From IMG/VR virus record IMGVR_UViG_2541047788_000006: DNA of 48,822 nt; one strand, 5' to 3'. The DNA comes from a virus. Its lineage: Duplodnaviria; Heunggongvirae; Uroviricota; Caudoviricetes. The position numbers and the translations under genes are program-made. Of this stretch, positions 8,728 to 24,241 are shown piece by piece; positions within the stretch are counted from its first letter, which is position 1, and each line of letters begins with the position of its first letter. The notes under the pieces are model-generated. The model was not told where the DNA came from, searched no databases, and was given only the letters and a program-made list of their open reading frames with translations.

Positions 8728-12129
<3,402 letters not shown>

Positions 12130-14188: not shown

Positions 14189-14518
14189 CTATGCCACGAC
14201 CTGTTCAAAATCTGCCGTTATGGTTACCCACAACGCCCCCACGCTTGCCGACCATTTACGACAAACCACCCTGATCGGCTTCCAGTCATAAGGTGGCGTC
14301 CACTGAAATGCGCGGACGCCACCGTGCCGTTCCAGAAAGGCTTTTAAAGATGGGTGTTCACATTTACGAACACGTATCGTCACGCTGTAAGTCGACAACT
14401 GGTTATTCAGTCCCGCCGCACGACGCTGTTCATAACCATCGCCAAGCTTCACTGTCACCACTTTCGGCTCTGATACCACATTCATATCCGGGCGCACTTT
14501 CCAGTGAAACGTCTCCAT
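14189..14518 (-). CDS. M: minor tail protein M
   Basis: 109 aa, lambda gpM-like sequence and position directly downstream of H. Confidence 0.9.
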   Translation of the reverse strand: METFHWKVRPDMNVVSEPKVVTVKLGDGYEQRRAAGLNNQLSTYSVTIRVRKCEHPSLKAFLERHGGVRAFQWTPPYDWKPIRVVCRKWSASVGALWVTITADFEQVVA

Positions 14519-17500
14519 TACCGATATGCTCCACTTAACCGACCACCATCACGGGCCTGCTGTTGCATAAAGTCCGCTGCCGCTTTTTTCCCGAGGTCAT
14601 AAACCGCCTTCAGGGCAGCCGGACCTATCTGCCCGTTCGTGCCATCGTTATTGATCTCGATGTTGTACTGCGGGGAAAACATCGCCATACCTGAACCCCC
14701 AATATCCGCCACAACCCCCAGCTTACCGTCAGCACCACGACGCAATGGCAGAATGGCTTCAGGTCCCGCTTCCCCCATCACACCCGCGCCTTTTGCAAAA
14801 GCAAAAAACGTCGGACGGTTAACCACCGTGCCACTGTAACGACTCAAATCAGCAGACTGATAAATCCCCCCATTGGCATTCAGGGAAAGGCTGCTGAGAT
14901 CAAATCCCAGCACACTGCCAATCCCTTTTATCGATTTCATCATGGTTGCCTGCGCCAGGATTTTCGCCATATCTGACAGCACAGAAGAGGTGAAGGATTT
15001 GAAATTGAGTTTGCCGGTAGTGACAAAAGTTGCCAGGCCATTTCCCATGTTGCTGAAGGCTGACGAGAACACCTGTTCTGCTGTTCCTGCCGTATTATCT
15101 GCATCCACGGTAAAATCCTGAAATGCACGCAGGACTCCGTTTTTCCAGTTACCCTGCACAACTTCAAGCTGTTGCCAGTAACGGCGATTCTCATTCAGTT
15201 GTCGGTTCAGGCTCTCCGTCAGCGCCTGCTCGGCCTTTCTGTAGTCATCCGTGTTATATGTTCCTTTCTGCTCACTATCCCGCCTCAACTGCTCCAGCTG
15301 TTGCTGGTATTTCTGGCGAAGACTCAGTTGTACCTGATATCGCTGCCGCTGCTGATCACCCATACCCACCGTGGCGATATCCAGGTCATGTTGCTGACGC
15401 TGAGCGCGCTCTTCTTCAGCCAGTTGACTGGTCAGCTGAATTGTTTTTTTCTTCAGCTCGTTGAGTGCCGTCTGTTTCTGAAGCTCCTGCTGTTTTACAT
15501 CCAGCAGCGTCAGTGCCTGAATCAGTTCATCTTTACGGGCCAGCACACTCTTTTCATCTGCCGTCAGTTTTTTCCCGTCCAGGTCGCTGATGCGCTGCTG
15601 CAGAGCCAGAAGCTGTTTATGCGCTTCTGTCATCCTTTCCGTGGCAATGCCTGCTGACTGTCTGGCAGCAGCAATCTGTCCTTCCACCTGTGCCTGTTGC
15701 TGACTGTACTGCAGCAATAACCGGGTGGCCTCATCATTACGGGGTTCGCGTGTTTTTTTCTTACCGGATGCCAGGGCTTTCTCGTAACGTTCATTTTCAC
15801 GTTGTATCGCTGCATCCCTGACAGCCTGATCGGCGTACTGCATGGAATTAATACGCGCAATTTCACGCTGATGTCGTGCTGCTTCCGTTTCATTCATCCG
15901 GTTCAGTGCAGCATTTTCAGCATTACGTCGTTTCTGTTGCTCCTGATAATTCCGCTCTGCCTGCTCTTTTGCATCCTGCAAATCCTTCTGGCGTTTTTTC
16001 TCCTGAAGATCGTTAAGACGCTGCTGATCGTATTCAACCTGAGAAGATGATGCCGTCCAGGGGAGTCTTTTCGCCCGCGACACTTTCTCCTGTAAAGCGG
16101 CAATCTGTTCATCCAGCGAGTCTTCACGACCAATATTCATGGCCGCATCCCAGAAACGACTCCACAAATCAGACAGATACTTCAGCGTACTGCCAAGCGC
16201 ATTGAGGTTATTATCAATATCCGCAGTACGCCGACCGGTTTCCTCTGCCAGTGCAGACATGGCTATCCGTGCAGCATCACTGGACCGTCCCTGATCCCCA
16301 AGGACACGTATCTGCTCAAGCTGAGTGGCAGTAAGAAAATGCAGCTCATTGTCCAGAGCCTTCGCGGCATTTACAGGATCATCCTTCAGCCGCTTAAACT
16401 GATTTATGGTATCGCTGACCGACTGGCCAACCGATCGCTCCATCTGTGCGGCAGCTCTCGCCACCATACCGATATCGTTTCCACGAAATGCACCACTCCC
16501 CACCACCTGAGCCAGCGCACCGGCTGCAGCATGTTGCGTGATACCATTCCCGGAAATAGCACGACTGAGCGTCCACAGCTGCCCGGCAGTGACTCCGGCA
16601 TAATGCCCCGTCAGCGACAACTGGCGGTTAAATTCTTCCCCCTCCTTCTGACCGTCATACCAGGCTTTACCCAGACCATAGACGGACGCGGCAATACCGC
16701 CAATAACCCCGCCAAGCATCATGCCTTTCGGTGACATCAGAGTGTCTATCCATCCGGCACGGTTAGCCAGCGTTATCCCGGATCCCCTCAGCGCCCCTAA
16801 ATTGCCGCGGGCCAGTTCACCTATCAGAACGCCAATCTCCTGGCGGGCCGCTGCACTTTTCAGACCCAGCGAATGCGTGGCTTTTCCTGCCTGCTCCATT
16901 TTGCGGATATACACTTCTGCAGCACTGCTTACCCCCAGCTGGGCAGCCTTAGCACGAAGCAACTCAGAAGAAGAAAGATTCTGGCGGGTTGCCTGCTCTT
17001 TAAGCTGACGGATAAACGCCACTTTCTGTCGGGTAGCCTCTTCCTCAGCCTGCGTAAGAACACGGGTTTTCGCCGTAACCTCAGAAATCAGCGCCAGATA
17101 ATCCTGCTGACCAATCCCGCCACTGTTTCTGGCCTGTCGGATCTGCTGCTGAATACGCTGTAATTCCTGCAGCCCCGCACTGGCCTGTTTCACACTGTCA
17201 ATCTGACGATAAAACGCGGCAGCCGCTTTATCCTGAGCCTCCGCCAGAGCCATGGCCTGCGCCTGTTCCTCGCGCATTTTCTGGCTCAGTGCCTCCATAC
17301 GCTGGCGGGTTTGCTCCACCTCGCGGGCCATGCGTTCATGAGCCTGTGCGCTCTTCTCCACCGTCTGCGCATGGACGGATGCGGCTGTTGCAGCCGAAGA
17401 AGCCGCCTGCATTGTCTGCCGGGCGGCCTGAGTCTGACGCTCCATAAAACGCTGCATACGGGCAGAAGACCGTTCTGCATCGCTGGCTGCACCATTCAGA

Positions 17501-17613
17501 AGGTTTTTGATACGGGGAATTTCATTTTTAAACTCTGCCGCATCAATCCCCAAATCAATGACCAGGTTGGCTATCTGGTCCATAACGCACACCTCCGGAA
17601 ATACCTTCCCCAA
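14518..17613 (-). CDS. H: tail tape measure protein H
   Basis: 1031-aa largely alpha-helical, Ala/Gln/Arg/Glu-rich protein between G/T and M; start may be 17583 (MDQIANLVIDLG...). Confidence 0.9.
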   Translation of the reverse strand: MGKVFPEVCVMDQIANLVIDLGIDAAEFKNEIPRIKNLLNGAASDAERSSARMQRFMERQTQAARQTMQAASSAATAASVHAQTVEKSAQAHERMAREVEQTRQRMEALSQKMREEQAQAMALAEAQDKAAAAFYRQIDSVKQASAGLQELQRIQQQIRQARNSGGIGQQDYLALISEVTAKTRVLTQAEEEATRQKVAFIRQLKEQATRQNLSSSELLRAKAAQLGVSSAAEVYIRKMEQAGKATHSLGLKSAAARQEIGVLIGELARGNLGALRGSGITLANRAGWIDTLMSPKGMMLGGVIGGIAASVYGLGKAWYDGQKEGEEFNRQLSLTGHYAGVTAGQLWTLSRAISGNGITQHAAAGALAQVVGSGAFRGNDIGMVARAAAQMERSVGQSVSDTINQFKRLKDDPVNAAKALDNELHFLTATQLEQIRVLGDQGRSSDAARIAMSALAEETGRRTADIDNNLNALGSTLKYLSDLWSRFWDAAMNIGREDSLDEQIAALQEKVSRAKRLPWTASSSQVEYDQQRLNDLQEKKRQKDLQDAKEQAERNYQEQQKRRNAENAALNRMNETEAARHQREIARINSMQYADQAVRDAAIQRENERYEKALASGKKKTREPRNDEATRLLLQYSQQQAQVEGQIAAARQSAGIATERMTEAHKQLLALQQRISDLDGKKLTADEKSVLARKDELIQALTLLDVKQQELQKQTALNELKKKTIQLTSQLAEEERAQRQQHDLDIATVGMGDQQRQRYQVQLSLRQKYQQQLEQLRRDSEQKGTYNTDDYRKAEQALTESLNRQLNENRRYWQQLEVVQGNWKNGVLRAFQDFTVDADNTAGTAEQVFSSAFSNMGNGLATFVTTGKLNFKSFTSSVLSDMAKILAQATMMKSIKGIGSVLGFDLSSLSLNANGGIYQSADLSRYSGTVVNRPTFFAFAKGAGVMGEAGPEAILPLRRGADGKLGVVADIGGSGMAMFSPQYNIEINNDGTNGQIGPAALKAVYDLGKKAAADFMQQQARDGGRLSGAYR

Positions 17614-17884
17614 GATGCATCAGTTCTTCGTCCGTTCGCTCCGGTATCCCGTTCTCTTCCGGTAAAAGGCTGAAATCAGCCACCGCAGCATCACTGCTAC
17701 CGGACACCATTCTCACGATCAATGCCTTCAGCGAGGCAAACTGCGCATCCATCCACACATCACTGAAGCTCTGCATCCGGAAATAATCGCCCCACTCACC
17801 AAGCTCAGTGGCCGACATTTCCGACAGCATCCGCCGCCAGTCTGCCCGCCGGAACTCCCGGGCAAGCCGCATGACAAACTGCAT
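17555..17884 (-). CDS. T: T segment of the tail assembly chaperone G-T fusion (reached by -1 frameshift from G)
   Basis: ORF in the -1 frame relative to G; this frame is open from 17917, overlapping the last 8 codons of G; lambda gpT-like. Confidence 0.7.
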   Translation of the reverse strand: MQFVMRLAREFRRADWRRMLSEMSATELGEWGDYFRMQSFSDVWMDAQFASLKALIVRMVSGSSDAAVADFSLLPEENGIPERTDEELMHLGEGISGGVRYGPDSQPGH

Positions 17885-17892
17885 TTCCCGCG

Positions 17893-18321
17893 TCAGGACT
17901 TTTCCGGCGTCAGCACCTCATGCTCCAAATCCCCGGCATTCTCAATGACTCCCATACCGCTCAGCGACAGAACCATCTCCGCCCCCGCTCCCAGGGCATC
18001 ATACGACCATGTTGTAATAACGGATGCGCAAAGCGTCTCAACATCCTGAGACTGTTCCGCATTCCACAGTGAGCGGGAAACCAGCCAGGCATTGATATCC
18101 ATCCCCATCCGCAGAAAAGCAATCTGTCGTTCAGCCTCCGGCAGTTCTCCCTCTTCGGCATCAAACTTTGCCGTTCGCTGCTGAACAAACGCCAGATATT
18201 CAATTCTCTGCAGCCCGGACAGCTCACTGAGCACCACGGACTGCTTTTCATAATTAAACGTGCCCTGTTTCAGAAACATCATGTTCTCCACCTGCAAAAA
18301 AGCCCCGGATAACCGGGGCAA
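17893..18321 (-). CDS. G: tail assembly chaperone G
   Basis: 142-aa ORF; segment MFLKQGTFNYEKQSVVLSELSGLQRIEYL resembles the lambda gpG N-terminus (likely true start near 18279); followed by the overlapping T frame. Confidence 0.8.
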   Translation of the reverse strand: MPRLSGAFLQVENMMFLKQGTFNYEKQSVVLSELSGLQRIEYLAFVQQRTAKFDAEEGELPEAERQIAFLRMGMDINAWLVSRSLWNAEQSQDVETLCASVITTWSYDALGAGAEMVLSLSGMGVIENAGDLEHEVLTPEKS

Positions 18322-18339: not shown

Positions 18340-19089
18340 TTAACCTGCGGCGCTGACAGCCACCGCAGCCACTGCCACAAAATCGCCGTCAGAAGTCATG
18401 CCCACAATGCTGACACTGCCCTGCTTCACGCCTTTCACCGTGGCCACAAGCCCGTTCAGGGTCACCGTGGCAGTCTGTGGATCTGTCGAATGCACACTGA
18501 TCGCTTTGTCACTGGCTCCGTCAGGTTTTACTGTAAAGGTCAGCGTGGTGGTTGCTCCCACTTTTACACTGGCAGATGCCGGTGCCACCGTCAGCCCGGT
18601 AACGCTCACTGTTTCAGTGCCTTCCTCTGCCAGATACGGACGCCCCACACCGCTGATTTTCACTGTGCGGGTCATCACGTCTTTTGAGGCAATGGTTTTA
18701 CCCAGTGAGCTCAGCCAGCCACGGAAAACATCAACAGTGCCGTTGGGATATTTGATACGAAACGCGCAGACTTCACCGGAGTCGAACAACTGAACCAGTT
18801 TTTTCTGCCCGCTGTCACCCGGACGCCAGGCCAGCGTCGCCGAAGTATCACCGACGGATTTCTGCCCCTGGGTTGTCGTTTTCCAGTCTGCATCTTCATC
18901 ATCGAGATAAGTGTCATCTTCTGCATCAGCGGTCATTTCGCCAGGTTGCAGATCCTTCACCATCGCAAGACGCAGCCAGTCAGTGTCCGATAAAGGGTTC
19001 GCAAACGCATCGCCCTTGCCGGTGTACATCCAGAACGTCGTTCCCGCACCTTTCGTTTTTGCCAGTGGATTTGGTGTGGTCATTGCCAC
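18340..19089 (-). CDS. V: major tail tube protein V
   Basis: 249 aa with C-terminal Ig-like (Big_2-type) segment, as in lambda gpV. Confidence 0.9.
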   Translation of the reverse strand: MAMTTPNPLAKTKGAGTTFWMYTGKGDAFANPLSDTDWLRLAMVKDLQPGEMTADAEDDTYLDDEDADWKTTTQGQKSVGDTSATLAWRPGDSGQKKLVQLFDSGEVCAFRIKYPNGTVDVFRGWLSSLGKTIASKDVMTRTVKISGVGRPYLAEEGTETVSVTGLTVAPASASVKVGATTTLTFTVKPDGASDKAISVHSTDPQTATVTLNGLVATVKGVKQGSVSIVGMTSDGDFVAVAAVAVSAAG

Positions 19090-20760: not shown

Positions 20761-22719
20761 TTACGCCGTACATTTCACCAGACCGCGGTGATCAACTGGC
20801 GCGACACCGGCGTCAATACGCACTTTCGTTGTCACGCCATCCACACTGAAGCCCTCCATCTGATCAATATATGGCGTATCCACACCGTTGAGATAAGCCA
20901 CTTCAATCGTATCGGAGCCTTTTGACGCAGCCAGGTAGAAGGTGGTCTGGCTGTTATCATCAAGACGAGGCTCTGCAATAACGGTCGCAAAATCTTTCAC
21001 CGGGTTAATAATACCGGCGTTAATGTCAGCCCCCTTGACACTTGAGGAGCGAATGACCTGGTTAGCAACAGACTCCATCGCCGTCGGTACCAGTACGAAC
21101 GCAGGACGAATATTCAGATGACGCTCCCCCTCTTTCTGAACGCGCATCAACTGGCGGGCTTTATCCAGCGATGCCACGTCCATTGCAGCGCTCTCCAGTA
21201 CGTTTGCATGTTTCGCTTTATCGAACAGACTTACATTATCTGTGGAGATTTTCGGGTTAGACGTCAGAATGGCATAAACCAGATCGGCAATAGTGGATTT
21301 CGCCGCACGGCCCAGTTTCATCGGGACATCGGTCAGCATATTCAGATCATCATTGATAATGGCCTGACGGGTGATACTGAACAGCTCGCCATAGGTCGCC
21401 AGTGCAATAGTGGCCTGTTTATCTCCGGTGGTGACGTATTTATATTCCGCCCCTTCACGCACCTGACGTAGAGCACTGAAGCCCCCCATACCCACACGAT
21501 GGGCAATTTTAAAATCAGACAACTGACCTTTCCGCGTCCACTGTTCATAGGTTTCAGGGGCATCTTCCCAGCCCTGCAGAATGGCTTTGTTCGCAACATC
21601 CAGCAGAATATTACCGAAGTCAGACGTACTGTGTGTGAACGCCGCACCGACCATCTGCATCGGGTTATAACCGGAAACCCCAATACCCCGTTCAGTTAGT
21701 GACATACGGGCATATTCACGCAGGGTCATCCCGTTGTAGACATTATCACGTTCGGTTTTTTCAAATCCGGCACGCGCCATCAGCGCCTGGCGAATCCCGT
21801 CCCCCACAAAATTACCGTTACCGGCATAAATATGAGCCGGGGTATTTTTATTGGATGGCGTGGACTCGCGCCCCATCTCGTTCAACAGCTTTTCACGGGC
21901 CTGCTCCAGCGAACATTCAGGATCGGCAAGACACTGGGCCTGCAGCGTCTGATAACGCCCGCCAAACATGGCAAACAGATCATTAATACCGTTTACACGC
22001 GCTTTTTGCTCTGCCAGTACCTGCGCACGGATACTGTTTTCATCCACCACGGGTGCTGCTGCCTGCACTGGCGTCCGGGAGGCTGCAGGTTCATCATCCT
22101 GTACGCGTGGAGCACTGTTGCGTGGCGGAGTAATCATGTTTCGAATGGATTCCGGCATCTTTTTAAATTCCTCTGTACGTTTTGACTGAATACATGCCAT
22201 TGCCTTAACGGCTGGTGTCACCTGATCAGCAAATCCCTGTGCCAGACATTCGGCACCGGACATCCAGGTCTCATCCGCCAGCATGGCAGCAATTTCATCG
22301 GTGGTTTTCCCGGTTTTCTGTGCATAAGCGGGTAACAGAACCGCCTCAACTTTATCGAGCAGGTCGGCATAGGTGCGCATGTCCTCCGCATCACCGCCCG
22401 TAAAGCCAAATGGTTTATGAATCATCATGAAGGAGTTTTCCGGCATAATGACCGGGTTTCCCACCATCGCAATGACCGACGCCATTGACGCCGCCACACC
22501 GTCGACATAAACGGTAATGGACGCACCATGTGTTTTCAGTGCATTAAAAATGGCGATGCCTTCAAAGACATCGCCACCCGGTGAATTAATATGGAGATTA
22601 ATGTGGGTGATATCGCCCAGTGCATTCAGATCACTGATAAACTGCTTCGCTGTAACACCCCAGAAACCAATCTCGTCATAAATATAAATATCCGCGTCAC
22701 TCTGGTGACCTGCCTGCAT
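20761..22719 (-). CDS. prohead protease (ClpP/S49-like) fused to major capsid protein
   Basis: N-terminal ClpP-like segment (IYIYDEIGFWGV...INSPGGDVFEGIAIFNAL...MASVIAMVG) followed by ~450 aa capsid-like region; start set at MQAGHQ (ATG 22719), overlapping the portal end by 14 nt; the ORF track's upstream extension overlaps portal and is unlikely coding. Confidence 0.75.
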   Translation of the reverse strand: MQAGHQSDADIYIYDEIGFWGVTAKQFISDLNALGDITHINLHINSPGGDVFEGIAIFNALKTHGASITVYVDGVAASMASVIAMVGNPVIMPENSFMMIHKPFGFTGGDAEDMRTYADLLDKVEAVLLPAYAQKTGKTTDEIAAMLADETWMSGAECLAQGFADQVTPAVKAMACIQSKRTEEFKKMPESIRNMITPPRNSAPRVQDDEPAASRTPVQAAAPVVDENSIRAQVLAEQKARVNGINDLFAMFGGRYQTLQAQCLADPECSLEQAREKLLNEMGRESTPSNKNTPAHIYAGNGNFVGDGIRQALMARAGFEKTERDNVYNGMTLREYARMSLTERGIGVSGYNPMQMVGAAFTHSTSDFGNILLDVANKAILQGWEDAPETYEQWTRKGQLSDFKIAHRVGMGGFSALRQVREGAEYKYVTTGDKQATIALATYGELFSITRQAIINDDLNMLTDVPMKLGRAAKSTIADLVYAILTSNPKISTDNVSLFDKAKHANVLESAAMDVASLDKARQLMRVQKEGERHLNIRPAFVLVPTAMESVANQVIRSSSVKGADINAGIINPVKDFATVIAEPRLDDNSQTTFYLAASKGSDTIEVAYLNGVDTPYIDQMEGFSVDGVTTKVRIDAGVAPVDHRGLVKCTA

Positions 22720-22732
22720 CCTGAACCAGGAA

Positions 22733-24241
22733 TTATTCTTCGGACTGGTCGTCGGTGTGCTGCGGCTCCTGTCGTTTCGTTGCGGCACTGCTGCCTCCTT
22801 TATCACTGGCCGGATCGGTATCAAATACCAGATCCAGCTTGCGGTTTTCATCAATTTCGGCCTTGCGCCGACGTTTGACATCATCCGGATTACGACCACC
22901 TGCACGTACCCAGTCTGATTCTGTCGCCGCTCCACCACGAATCTGAATTTTCCAGGCCTCAGCCTCCTTAACAGGGTCAATCCACGGCATCACCGGTCCG
23001 GAATACACCGCGGTATACAGTGAAGAACGATCAAGATCGCGGGGTAGCCTGATAACACCGGATGCCACAGCCTGTTTCAGCCAGGCACGATACATCGGGC
23101 GGGTGACGGCACCAATAAACCAGTCCTGCAGGATCAGGTAGCCATCAGTGGATTCAACCAGCTCCTGACGCTGGGCGCTGTAAGTGCCGTTATAGTTGCG
23201 TGCCGTACTGGAAAAACTCAGACGACTGCCCGCCGCCACGGCACGCAACTGACCATTACGAAAAGTTTCAAGGTTAGGATTGGGACGATCCGACTTCACC
23301 ATTCCGATTTCTTCGCCGGGTTTCAGATCGTCGTAAATAATGCCTGGCTGAATGGTAAGCTCGCGTTCATTCTCCTTGCTGCCATTACCATCCGGTTCAT
23401 AGCTCTGCCCGTCGCCTTTCCGGATGTACATCCCCAGAGCAGCGGCGATCCTTGCTGCAGTCAGCTCAGAATCTTCATACTCTTTCAGGGCACTGAGGCG
23501 GATCAGCACACCGGACAACAAAGACGTCCCGCGCATCTGGTGCAGACGGCGAACAAATTTAAGATGCAGCATTCGCTCTGCATCCACTTCTTTGGTTTCC
23601 ATCTGCCGCCCGGATACGGGACGGCTTTTATACACCAGATATTTTTCGGGACGCCCCCAGTCATCAACAAACACGCCCTGATTCAGCCTGTTGCTCTCAT
23701 CACTGGTCATGGGAATAAAGTCCGGCTCGAGCGCCTCCAGCCAGAAATGAACACCGGCAGAAGGCGTCAGGCTGTTTATGCGCCCGGAAACCATCTGGGC
23801 AAACACCTCACCATCGCGCAGCCAGGTACGCAGCATCAGACGTTCCAGCATCGGACGGGTAAACTGCCCGGTGACTTCCGGACTGACAGACCATTCACTC
23901 CATCGGGTGCGTATCTCCGCTGCCAGATCACGGGCAATGGCCCCATTGCGTAATACCGGATGTGGCTCGACAATAATCCCGTTTTTCCCCACCACCCGTT
24001 CTTCCAGCTTGTCAAATACACCAATAACCAGATCGTGGTTGTTATCAAGGTAACGGGCCTGCTCACGTAACGACACGGCCCCGTACTGGCTTAACTGGTC
24101 GGCAGTTCGGTTTTCCCGCCGGGCTTTGTGTGTCCGTGTCGTTTTTACGGCCTCATAAGCCTGGATCACCGCACGGGAACGCAGCCTTGCCGCTTTCCAT
24201 CCTGGTGAAAAAACGCCAATCACATCATCAAGAATTGCCAT
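22733..24241 (-). CDS. portal protein
   Basis: ~500-aa protein directly downstream of W-like and terL; acidic C-terminus; start set at MAILDDVIG, whose ATG overlaps the W stop by one nucleotide. Confidence 0.85.
   Translation of the reverse strand: MAILDDVIGVFSPGWKAARLRSRAVIQAYEAVKTTRTHKARRENRTADQLSQYGAVSLREQARYLDNNHDLVIGVFDKLEERVVGKNGIIVEPHPVLRNGAIARDLAAEIRTRWSEWSVSPEVTGQFTRPMLERLMLRTWLRDGEVFAQMVSGRINSLTPSAGVHFWLEALEPDFIPMTSDESNRLNQGVFVDDWGRPEKYLVYKSRPVSGRQMETKEVDAERMLHLKFVRRLHQMRGTSLLSGVLIRLSALKEYEDSELTAARIAAALGMYIRKGDGQSYEPDGNGSKENERELTIQPGIIYDDLKPGEEIGMVKSDRPNPNLETFRNGQLRAVAAGSRLSFSSTARNYNGTYSAQRQELVESTDGYLILQDWFIGAVTRPMYRAWLKQAVASGVIRLPRDLDRSSLYTAVYSGPVMPWIDPVKEAEAWKIQIRGGAATESDWVRAGGRNPDDVKRRRKAEIDENRKLDLVFDTDPASDKGGSSAATKRQEPQHTDDQSEE

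What the first reader, a model, noticed from the sequence alone, without database searches (positions are those of the whole stretch)
17893..17920. G-T tail chaperone frameshift window lacks the canonical GGGAAAG slippery heptamer
The T frame (-1 relative to G) opens only 8 codons before the G stop (T-frame TGA at 17918..17920; G stop 17893..17895), so the programmed frameshift must occur within 17896..17917. The only slip-prone sequence there is CCG-GAA-AAG (heptamer G-GAA-AAG, 17899..17905) rather than lambda's G-GGA-AAG, implying a variant slippery site with A-site Lys tRNA slipping AAG to AAA.
Basis: partly seen in the sequence, partly recalled or inferred. Interest (0 to 1): 0.45.

Follow-up and report, generated by a model that had tools for sequence, protein, structure and literature searches.

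The report
Known GGAAAAG tail-chaperone frameshift site
This is the usual ribosomal frameshift site that lets a lambda-like E. coli phage make a small amount of a fused tail-assembly protein (GT); its G-GAA-AAG sequence differs from phage lambda's textbook G-GGA-AAG, but it is the commonest form in this gene family and is already annotated in phages N15 and LLS, so it is ordinary.

Summary
On the minus strand, gene G (18282..17893) ends ...CTG ACG CCG GAA AAG TCC TGA. The -1 (T) frame is closed by a TGA at 17920..17918. It is therefore open for only 22 nt (17917..17896) before the G stop. GGAAAAG (17905..17899) is the only re-pairable sequence in that stretch.

Pfam and NCBIfam identify G and T as lambda gpG and gpT equivalogs, placed between the tail tube gene and the tape measure gene. 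The window is an mEp460-like lambdoid phage. The G-T segment occurs in 1848 of 5426 complete E. coli genomes.

The heptamer is not unusual. Among 37 diverged lineages of lambda-type G-T, 31 use GGAAAAG and only 3 use lambda's GGGAAAG. The N15 record marks GGAAAAG as the "slippery sequence for -1 translational frameshift", and phage LLS annotates it too.

In all 31 GGAAAAG lineages the codon before GAA ends in G, although it encodes five different amino acids. GAA and AAG are also invariant. This points to a two-tRNA slip: tRNA-Glu moves GAA->GGA with a central G·U pair, and tRNA-Lys moves AAG->AAA.

I found no conserved downstream RNA structure. A dnaX-like GAGG lies 10 nt upstream, but only in some lineages. 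There are no protein data.

The parts
17893..18282 (-). Gene G, the tail assembly chaperone (129 aa; PGAP starts it one codon later, at 18279). The stop TGA is at 17895..17893.
   Evidence: Pfam PF06894 Phage_TAC_2, 7e-40. NCBIfam TIGR01674 phage_lambda_G equivalog, 186.6 bits against a cut-off of 74.45. Good RBS, GGTGGAGAAC-ATG.
17899..17905 (-). Slippery heptamer G_GAA_AAG (0 frame CCG GAA AAG; -1 frame GGA AAA).
   Evidence: Sequence. Conserved in 31 of 37 lineages. The same heptamer is annotated as the -1 slip site in N15 and LLS.
17896..17917 (-). The only stretch where both the G frame and the -1 (T) frame are open.
17918..17920 (-). TGA in the -1 frame, which closes the T frame upstream.
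17555..17899 (-). T-frame segment read after the shift (VLTREMQFVMRLAREF...GH, 114 aa plus stop). The predicted GT fusion is 242 aa, with the junction ...LTPEK|VLTRE...
   Evidence: Pfam PF06223 Phage_tail_T, 5e-15. TIGR01715 phage_lam_T equivalog, 134.1 bits against 77.35, and phrog_32165 spanning residues 2-238 of the fusion.
17882..17884 (-). The ATG that most database records use as an independent start for T. It is probably not a real start.
   Evidence: The only upstream match is GGGAA, 0 nt before the ATG by the string (CGCGGGAA|ATG), so there is no usable spacing. This ATG is replaced by CTG or CTT in Gifsy-1, Fels-1 and Gifsy-2, while the T-frame residues before it are conserved.
17914..17919 (-). 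Shine-Dalgarno-like GAGGTG. The GAGG core ends 10 nt 5' of the heptamer. It is a possible lineage-specific stimulator and is unverified.
   Evidence: It is the best anti-SD duplex in the 60 nt upstream (-9.2 kcal/mol). An AGG at this distance is kept in all 10 distinct contexts of the window/Gifsy/Fels clade although the amino acids differ. It is present in only about a quarter of all lineages.
18340..19089 (-). Major tail tube gene (V-like), immediately upstream of G.
   Evidence: Pfam PF16461 Phage_TTP_12, 6e-67, plus Big_2.
14518..17583 (-). Tape measure gene (H-like). Its start overlaps the end of T by 29 nt.
   Evidence: Pfam TMP_2, Tape_meas_lam_C and TMP_4. Start inferred from the mEp460 and PGAP annotation. 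RBS GGAGG.
18302..18319 (-). Intrinsic terminator hairpin between V and G. It sets the context for how much G/GT/H is expressed.
   Evidence: A terminator is annotated at the same place in mEp460, Ayreon and N15.

Best explanation
This is the programmed -1 ribosomal frameshift site of the lambda-type tail assembly chaperone pair G/GT, in an mEp460-like lambdoid phage of E. coli. Most ribosomes translate G to its stop and make the 129-aa gpG. A minority slip back one base on G_GAA_AAG (17905..17899) and continue in the T frame. That gives a 242-aa GT fusion with the junction ...LTPEK|VLTRE.... As in lambda, the G part would bind the tape measure protein and the T part would recruit the tail tube protein. 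The favoured mechanism (about 2:1 over the single-tRNA version) is a two-tRNA slip. The A-site tRNA-Lys moves from AAG to the better-paired AAA. The P-site tRNA-Glu moves from GAA to GGA and keeps G:C, a central G·U and A:U. What the data show: the gene identities, the geometry of the frames, and the conservation of the heptamer. What is inferred: that the shift happens at all, its efficiency, and the two-tRNA route.
For: 1. G and T are gpG and gpT equivalogs lying between the V-like and H-like genes.
2. The two frames overlap for only 22 nt, and GGAAAAG is the only re-pairable site there.
3. Gifsy-1, Gifsy-2 and Fels-1 are only 68-70% identical in DNA, yet all keep ACN CCG GAA AAG YCC TGA.
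4. Across phage records, IMG/VR contigs and one-genome-per-species GTDB loci there are 73 distinct contexts. The counts are GGAAAAG 62, GGGAAAG 8 and others 3. After clustering into 37 lineages the counts are 31, 3 and 3.
5. The heptamer is fixed while the G stop lies 0, +3 or +15 nt after it. The 30 nt upstream are poorly conserved.
6. T-frame residues are conserved from the heptamer onward (GK-V/A-L...EL.FV..LAREF). This starts before any ATG.
7. Synonymous choices are frozen in 31 of 31 GGAAAAG lineages. The preceding codon is GCG, CCG, CTG, GTG or ACG and always ends in G, where the background is 0.31-0.59. GAA is always used (background 0.59), and so is AAG (background 0.35).
8. The N15 record marks GGAAAAG as 'slippery sequence for -1 translational frameshift'. 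LLS marks a 'minus-one programmed translational frameshift site GGAAAAG' with a joined CDS. The Gifsy-1 and Gifsy-2 records describe T as made by translational frameshifting.
9. A PHROG family of full-length fusions (phrog_32165) covers residues 2-238 of the predicted GT.
10. A_AAG is the best -1 tetramer in E. coli, and cognate A-site re-pairing ZZN->ZZZ is the main rule there (PMC4066793, PMC5009743).
Against: There is no protein evidence for GT from this phage or from any GGAAAAG phage in the sources I could read. In a reconstituted E. coli system, AUG GAA AAG was used as the 'less slippery' control and gave mainly 0-frame product (PMC6924986). Tetramers without a stimulator were barely above background in vivo (0.147% against 0.112%; PMC4066793). 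I found no conserved downstream structure. The efficiency could therefore be well below lambda's ~4%. The statistics on the position-1 G treat lineages as independent, which they are not. That G is also the first base of the T-frame Gly codon, although that codon should not be translated.
Confidence: 0.87

Rival explanations
1. The site and the product are the same, but only tRNA-Lys slips, as on an A_AAG tetramer or an NNA_AAG hexamer (IS1222 G_CGA_AAG is an example). The slip happens in the A site or, after translocation, in the P site. tRNA-Glu does not re-pair usefully. This is nested inside the main explanation, and its confidence is conditional on the frameshift occurring here.
For: A_AAG alone supports -1 shifting in E. 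coli, and its efficiency depends on the two 5' bases (PMC5009743). Peng et al. regard GAA->GGA as a non-cognate second-position mismatch. Two lineages lack the GG (AGAAAAG in Morganella, GGCAAAA in Kluyvera), yet they keep the A_AAR and the same T-frame entry point.
Against: The G at heptamer position 1 is invariant in 31 of 31 lineages, across five different preceding codons. A tetramer mechanism does not need that G. Both lineages without GG have a stop codon directly after the heptamer, which suggests they need a compensating pause. Tetramers without stimulators are near background, and no conserved stimulator was found.
Confidence: 0.3
2. T is an independent gene translated from the ATG at 17884, as most database records annotate it (109 aa). 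No frameshift is needed.
For: mEp460, cdtI, Tritos and RefSeq PGAP (WP_001161009.1) all annotate a stand-alone T ORF starting at this ATG.
Against: The only Shine-Dalgarno-like match before this ATG is a weak GGGAA that abuts the ATG with no usable spacing. The ATG is not conserved: it is CTG or CTT in Gifsy-1, Fels-1 and Gifsy-2. T-frame residues upstream of it (VLTRE, VLNRE, ALTRE) are conserved. The heptamer and its synonymous sites are frozen. In lambda only gpGT is made, not free gpT (Levin et al. 1993, as summarised in PMC5009743).
Confidence: 0.05
3. RNA polymerase slips on the A run and makes a -1 mRNA. The shift is transcriptional, not ribosomal.
For: Transcriptional slippage is used in some phage and IS genes that have long A or T runs (PMC5009743).
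Against: The run here is only four A's. Known slippage sites need about 7-9 or more identical bases (PMC3711429). The conserved G at position 7 (AAG rather than AAA) and the GG at positions 1-2 fit tRNA re-pairing, not polymerase slippage.
Confidence: 0.02

Closest known systems
Phage lambda G/GT -1 programmed frameshift at G_GGA_AAG (Levin, Hendrix & Casjens 1993; Xu, Hendrix & Duda 2004, 2013, 2014)
   Same: The genes are homologous (TIGR01674 and TIGR01715 equivalogs). The order V-G-T-H is the same. T is in the -1 frame in both. The slip site sits a few codons before the G stop in both. The A-site codon is the same (A_AAG), and so is the T-frame entry (GK-V...). Neither has a conserved downstream stimulator.
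   Different: Heptamer position 3 is A, not G. The P-site codon is therefore GAA (Glu), not GGA (Gly), and P-site re-pairing needs a central G·U pair. The G stop is 3 nt after the heptamer here and 15 nt after it in lambda. The GT proteins are only ~37% identical.
Phage N15 genes 14/15 (NC_001901) and phage LLS genes 11/12 (PQ299149)
   Same: Both records explicitly annotate the identical heptamer GGAAAAG as the -1 slippery sequence at the homologous position.
   Different: They belong to different lineages of the family (~34-38% identity to the window). The preceding codon is GCG or GTG rather than CCG. The G stop is 15 nt downstream. Neither has the upstream GAGG.
Gifsy-1, Gifsy-2 and Fels-1 prophages of Salmonella
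   Same: This is the same sub-clade (G ~55% identical). All share ACN CCG GAA AAG YCC TGA. The Gifsy records already call T a frameshift product.
   Different: The acidic tail of G and the first residues of T differ, and there is no ATG at the window's '17884' position.
NNA_AAG hexanucleotide / A_AAG tetranucleotide -1 sites (IS1222 G_CGA_AAG; Licznar et al. 2003; Sharma et al. 2014)
   Same: The slip rests on tRNA-Lys moving AAG->AAA, with a P-site codon that is not XXY.
   Different: Here positions 1-2 (GG) are conserved and allow near-cognate re-pairing of tRNA-Glu. The IS sites also rely on strong downstream structures, and none is seen here.
E. coli dnaX A_AAA_AAG with an upstream SD and a downstream hairpin
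   Same: The A-site codon is the same. The window also has an SD-like GAGG 10 nt upstream, which is the dnaX spacing.
   Different: There is no downstream hairpin. The SD-like element is present in only some lineages and is untested. The expected efficiency is a few percent or less, not ~50%.

Membership tests
Lambda-type G/GT tail assembly chaperone with conserved -1 frameshift (Xu et al. 2004) | Two overlapping ORFs lie between the major tail gene and the tape measure gene. | tested here: met
   V-like 19089..18340, G 18282..17893, T frame 17917..17555, H-like 17583..14518.
Lambda-type G/GT tail assembly chaperone with conserved -1 frameshift (Xu et al. 2004) | The upstream ORF is homologous to gpG and the downstream ORF to gpT. 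| tested here: met
   PF06894 7e-40 and PF06223 5e-15. TIGR01674 and TIGR01715 equivalogs are both above their cut-offs.
Lambda-type G/GT tail assembly chaperone with conserved -1 frameshift (Xu et al. 2004) | The downstream ORF is in the -1 frame, has no convincing start of its own, and is conserved in that frame from the overlap onward. | tested here: met
   Frames. Poor RBS. The ATG is not conserved, while the T-frame residues before it are.
Lambda-type G/GT tail assembly chaperone with conserved -1 frameshift (Xu et al. 2004) | A slip-prone sequence in the overlap is conserved among homologues. | tested here: met
   GGAAAAG in 31 of 37 lineages, and a slip-capable A_AAR in all 37.
Lambda-type G/GT tail assembly chaperone with conserved -1 frameshift (Xu et al. 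2004) | A GT fusion protein is made at a low percentage of G and is needed for tail assembly. | not testable with these tools
   This needs a Western blot, mass spectrometry or genetics. No published data for a GGAAAAG phage turned up in the searchable library.
Canonical X_XXY_YYZ tandem-slip heptamer | The P-site codon XXY re-pairs with XXX, with only the wobble position changing. | tested here: not met
   The P-site codon is GAA and the -1 codon is GGA. The change is at the second codon position, where U35 of tRNA-Glu could form only a G·U pair (sequence; noted as a mismatch in PMC6924986).
Canonical X_XXY_YYZ tandem-slip heptamer | The A-site codon YYZ re-pairs with YYY. | tested here: met
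   AAG->AAA, read by the single E. coli tRNA-Lys (sequence; PMC5009743).
Z_ZZN tetramer / NNA_AAG hexamer -1 sites | An in-frame A_AAG is present. | tested here: met
   GAA AAG in the G frame.
Z_ZZN tetramer / NNA_AAG hexamer -1 sites | A strong flanking stimulator (pseudoknot or hairpin) is present. Tetramers need one to rise above background. | tested here: not met
   The downstream fold has z = -1.33. RNAalifold on the 37 lineages finds no shared helix, and the per-lineage z-scores centre on 0.
dnaX-type stimulated -1 frameshift | An SD-like sequence lies ~10 nt 5' of the heptamer. | tested here: inconclusive
   The window has GAGG with a 10-nt spacer (-9.2 kcal/mol). There is some enrichment at 6-10 nt, but only in about 25% of lineages, and it is confounded by a conserved Glu codon.

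The most novel reading that the evidence does not exclude
G_GAA_AAG, not lambda's G_GGA_AAG, is the standard slip site of lambda-type tail chaperones. Biochemists have used this sequence as a 'non-slippery' control. In vivo it may nevertheless work as a true two-tRNA site with a second-position G·U re-pairing of tRNA-Glu. Its efficiency may be set lower than lambda's, or raised in some lineages (including this one) by a dnaX-like SD element 10 nt upstream. Both slipping tRNAs carry mnm5s2U34. The G:GT ratio of these very common E. coli prophages would then be doubly sensitive to the host thiolation pathway.
Probability: 0.3. Interest if true: 0.35.

Novelty: already known. Interest (0 to 1): 0.12.

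Why it matters
It matters little for discovery. The G/GT frameshift is a textbook recoding event, and this exact heptamer is already marked as the slip site in N15 and LLS. There is a practical point: most records, including RefSeq PGAP annotation, still list T as a stand-alone gene without the joined GT product (every record inspected here), and this segment occurs in about a third of complete E. coli genomes. There is also a minor point for specialists. The family's preferred site is one that in-vitro work classes as poorly slippery. Its real efficiency, and any stimulators, have not been reported in the literature I could search.

Tried and rejected
1. The IMG/VR scan with the window's G protein returned 80 loci that were all 99-100% identical. 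It confirmed invariance but gave no diversity. I replaced it with tblastn against phage records and a profile scan of GTDB species representatives.
2. Downstream stimulator: a single-sequence fold (z = -1.33), RNAalifold and per-lineage z-scores showed nothing conserved. Rejected.
3. Upstream SD-like stimulator: the signal is real in the window's clade but is not family-wide, and it is confounded by coding. I kept it only as a possibility.
4. Independent T start: rejected on the RBS and on conservation.
5. Transcriptional slippage: rejected, because the run is only four A's.
6. Other slip sites in the 22-nt overlap: none can re-pair.
7. Literature: Xu et al. 2004 (Mol Cell) and Licznar et al. 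2003 (EMBO J) are not held. I could not check whether they list or measured GGAAAAG / GAA_AAG. Full-text searches for GGAAAAG with frameshift, tail and phage found only Peng et al. 2019 to be relevant. The GeneTack tail-chaperone cluster tested at 6-7% is HK97-like, not this family.

Full report
**1. What is at the coordinates**

All the genes concerned are on the minus strand. The sequence read from 17960 downward is ...GAG CAT GAG GTG CTG ACG CCG GAA AAG TCC TGA CGC GGG AAA TGC AG.... The 0 frame belongs to a 129-aa ORF (18282..17893), and its TGA is at 17895..17893. One base back, the -1 frame has TGA at 17920..17918. It then reads GGT GCT GAC GCC GGA AAA GTC CTG ACG CGG GAA ATG CAG..., open down to 17555.

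Both frames are therefore open only in 17917..17896. GGAAAAG occupies 17905..17899. None of the other 0-frame codons in the overlap (GUG, CUG, ACG, CCG, UCC) could re-pair one base 5'.

GGAAAAG occurs 12 times on the two strands of the window, against 7.5 expected. An in-frame copy inside a pre-specified 22-nt stretch is therefore unlikely by chance, with a prior of roughly 4e-4.

**2. What the genes are**

- The upstream ORF matches Pfam Phage_TAC_2, the lambda gpG family (7e-40).
- The -1 ORF matches Phage_tail_T (5e-15).
- The gene before them is a lambda-type tail tube protein with a Big_2 domain.
- The gene after them is a tape measure protein.

The conceptual fusion is 242 aa, with the junction ...LTPEK|VLTREMQ.... 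It hits the NCBIfam equivalogs TIGR01674 (phage_lambda_G) and TIGR01715 (phage_lam_T), both well above their cut-offs. It also hits a PHROG family of full-length fusions across residues 2-238.

The window is an mEp460-like lambdoid phage. Positions 1276-25000 match mEp460_ev081 at 97.7% identity, covering 85% of the 25-kb query. The 841-bp G-T segment is 97.6-99.6% identical to Ayreon, cdtI, Tritos, mEp460 and others. It is present in 1848 of 5426 complete E. coli genomes.

**3. How databases treat it**

Most records, including RefSeq PGAP, annotate T as a separate 109-aa ORF starting at the ATG at 17884. Ayreon calls it 'GpGT-like'. The Gifsy-1 and Gifsy-2 records describe T as made by translational frameshifting from G.

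Two records settle the question of novelty. The N15 record (NC_001901) carries a misc_feature 'slippery sequence for -1 translational frameshift' at 10027..10033, and that sequence is GGAAAAG. Phage LLS (PQ299149) annotates a 'minus-one programmed translational frameshift site GGAAAAG' together with a joined CDS. The 'variant' heptamer is therefore already recognised at the homologous position.

**4. Comparative survey**

Gifsy-1, Gifsy-2 and Fels-1 share only 68-70% DNA identity with the window. All three keep ACN CCG GAA AAG YCC TGA, while the acidic tail of G just upstream is unalignable.

Representative phage records gave these sites:

| Phage | Codons at the site | Heptamer |
|---|---|---|
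| lambda | GCG GGA AAG | GGGAAAG |
| a Stx2a phage | GCG GGA AAG | GGGAAAG |
| a Stx1a phage | TCA AAA AAG | AAAAAAG |
| Providencia PSTCR8lys | CTG GAA AAG | GGAAAAG |
| an Enterobacter Ravinvirus | GCG GAA AAG | GGAAAAG |
| mEp043 | GCG GAA AAG | GGAAAAG |
| Eeyore | GCG GAA AAG | GGAAAAG |
| Kp4865-4 | GCG GAA AAG | GGAAAAG |
| LLS | GTG GAA AAG | GGAAAAG |

A profile scan of one genome per GTDB species added 76 loci, mostly from Enterobacterales. Pooled, 157 loci gave 73 distinct sequence contexts: GGAAAAG 62, GGGAAAG 8, AAAAAAG 1, AGAAAAG 1, GGCAAAA 1. Clustering by G protein left 37 lineages: GGAAAAG 31, GGGAAAG 3, others 3.

GT fusions of GGAAAAG lineages are as little as 31-38% identical to each other. 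GGGAAAG appears in two unrelated lineages: lambda/Stx2a, and Symbiopectobacterium/Serratia. GGAAAAG is thus the family norm and lambda's site is the minority.

The heptamer stays in register while the G stop lies 0, 3 or 15 nt after it. Information content peaks on the heptamer and is low for the 30 nt before it. After the heptamer, conservation follows the T frame (GK-V/A-L...EL.F(V/A)..LAREF), beginning before any ATG.

**5. Which tRNAs slip**

In the 31 GGAAAAG lineages the codon before GAA is GCG (15), CCG (9), CTG (5), GTG (1) or ACG (1). These encode five different amino acids, and every one ends in G. The background frequency of G-ending codons for those amino acids in the same genes is 0.31-0.59. 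GAA is used 31 of 31 times (background 0.59) and AAG 31 of 31 times (background 0.35).

The lineages are not independent, so the nominal probabilities (about 1e-12, 1e-7 and 1e-14) overstate the case. The pattern is still clear: every synonymous position inside the heptamer is frozen, including position 1.

A pure A_AAG tetramer mechanism needs only positions 4-7. A conserved G at position 1 is what tRNA-Glu (anticodon mnm5s2U-U-C) needs in order to re-pair on G-G-A with G:C, a central G·U and A:U. I therefore favour a tandem slip with near-cognate P-site re-pairing. PRFect's authors invoke the same kind of G·U rescue for GGGGGAA sites in actinophage chaperones, and they list an XXYYYY ('twofour') class among recurrent chaperone motifs (PMC10885494).

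Two lineages lack the GG: Morganella (GCA GAA AAG TAA) and Kluyvera (CTG GCA AAA TAG). Both have a stop codon immediately after the heptamer. That fits a compensating pause, but with n = 2 it is only a hint.

**6. Stimulators**

The 106 nt from the heptamer onward fold no better than shuffles (z = -1.33). RNAalifold on the 37 lineages finds no shared helix, and per-lineage z-scores for the 60 nt downstream scatter around zero. Lambda's site likewise needs no known stimulator (Levin et al. 1993, from my own knowledge).

Upstream, the window has GAGGTG (17919..17914). Its GAGG core ends 10 nt before the heptamer. This is the strongest anti-SD match in the 60 nt upstream (-9.2 kcal/mol), and the spacing is the one used by dnaX. 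Within the window/Gifsy/Fels clade an AGG is kept at this distance in all 10 distinct contexts, although the amino acids differ: GAG GTG, GAG GCG, AAG GAC, CAG GAC, GAG GAC and CAG GAA.

Family-wide, SD-like pairing is enriched 6-10 nt upstream, but only about a quarter of lineages reach -5 kcal/mol. A conserved Glu codon also contributes to the signal. I treat this as a possible lineage-specific enhancer, untested.

**7. Tension with biochemistry**

Peng et al. 2019 used AUG GAA AAG as the 'less slippery' comparison to G GGA AAG. They saw mainly 0-frame product with wild-type EF-G (PMC6924986). Sharma et al. 2014 found tetramers without stimulators barely above background in vivo (0.147% against 0.112%; PMC4066793).

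Atkins et al. 2016 note that A_AAG efficiency depends on the two 5' bases. They cite IS1222 G_CGA_AAG as a utilised case (PMC5009743).

Lambda needs only ~4% GT, and too much is harmful (PMC5009743; PMC3296357). A weak site is therefore plausible. The actual efficiency for GGAAAAG phages was not found in any source I could read.

Both slipping tRNAs here carry mnm5s2U34, the modification shown to tune lambda's G:GT ratio (PMC3296357). That they would be doubly sensitive is my inference.

**8. Rivals**

- Independent initiation of T. The only SD-like match before the ATG is a weak GGGAA with no usable spacing, whereas G and H have clear GGAG/GGAGG sites. The ATG is not conserved, while the residues before it are.
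- Transcriptional slippage. This is implausible on a run of four A's.
- A single-tRNA slip at the same site. This remains a live sub-alternative. It predicts the same protein.

**9. Verdict**

The site is a member of the lambda G/GT recoding family in every feature I could test, except the strict X_XXY_YYZ form. The heptamer is the family's majority form and is already annotated as such in N15 and LLS. It is already known and of low interest. The small open questions are its efficiency and the possible upstream SD-like enhancer.

Noticed in passing
window 17555..17884 (-); RefSeq loci such as L004: Most records, including RefSeq PGAP (WP_001161009.1), annotate T as a stand-alone 109-aa gene from a weak ATG, with no joined GT CDS. 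The segment is present in 1848 of 5426 complete E. coli genomes, so this annotation gap is probably widespread.
   Followed up: partly
window 18302..18319 (-): A strong intrinsic terminator hairpin (GCCCCGG-TTAT-CCGGGGC followed by T6) sits between the tail tube gene and G. It is also annotated in mEp460, Ayreon and N15. It would lower G/GT/H transcription relative to V.
   Followed up: partly
L113 (Morganella morganii), L116 (Kluyvera), L090 (Providencia phage), L106-L108 and L111 (Proteus): In some lineages the G stop codon follows the heptamer directly (…GAA AAG TAG/TAA). The only two lineages that lack GG at heptamer positions 1-2 (AGAAAAG and GGCAAAA) are both of this type. This suggests that a stop-codon pause can substitute for P-site re-pairing.
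   Followed up: partly
L143-L155 (GTDB genome contigs): Lambda-identical G-T loci appear on short contigs, several with low coverage (~1x where a cov_ value is shown), in assemblies labelled Neobacillus, Kitasatospora, Shewanella, Leeuwenhoekiella, Oceanobacillus, Pseudoxanthomonas and others. This is almost certainly lambda DNA contamination. An E. coli-prophage-type locus (98% identical) also sits in a 'Bacillota bacterium' MAG (L097).
   Followed up: no
window 20761..22980 (-): A 739-aa ORF lies upstream of the tail genes. Related phages annotate it variously as a ClpP-like protease/scaffold and a major head protein, so it appears to be a fused protease-scaffold-capsid gene. I did not examine it.
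   Followed up: no
window 17555..17583 (-): The tape measure gene start (ATG at 17583, good GGAGG RBS) overlaps the end of the T frame by 29 nt. The same arrangement is seen in mEp460, Gifsy-1 and N15.
   Followed up: no
window 17899..17905 (-): Both tRNAs on this heptamer (Glu-UUC and Lys-UUU) carry mnm5s2U34. In lambda only the Lys tRNA does. The G:GT ratio of GGAAAAG phages might therefore respond more strongly to the host TusA/MnmA thiolation pathway. This is an inference from PMC3296357.
   Followed up: no
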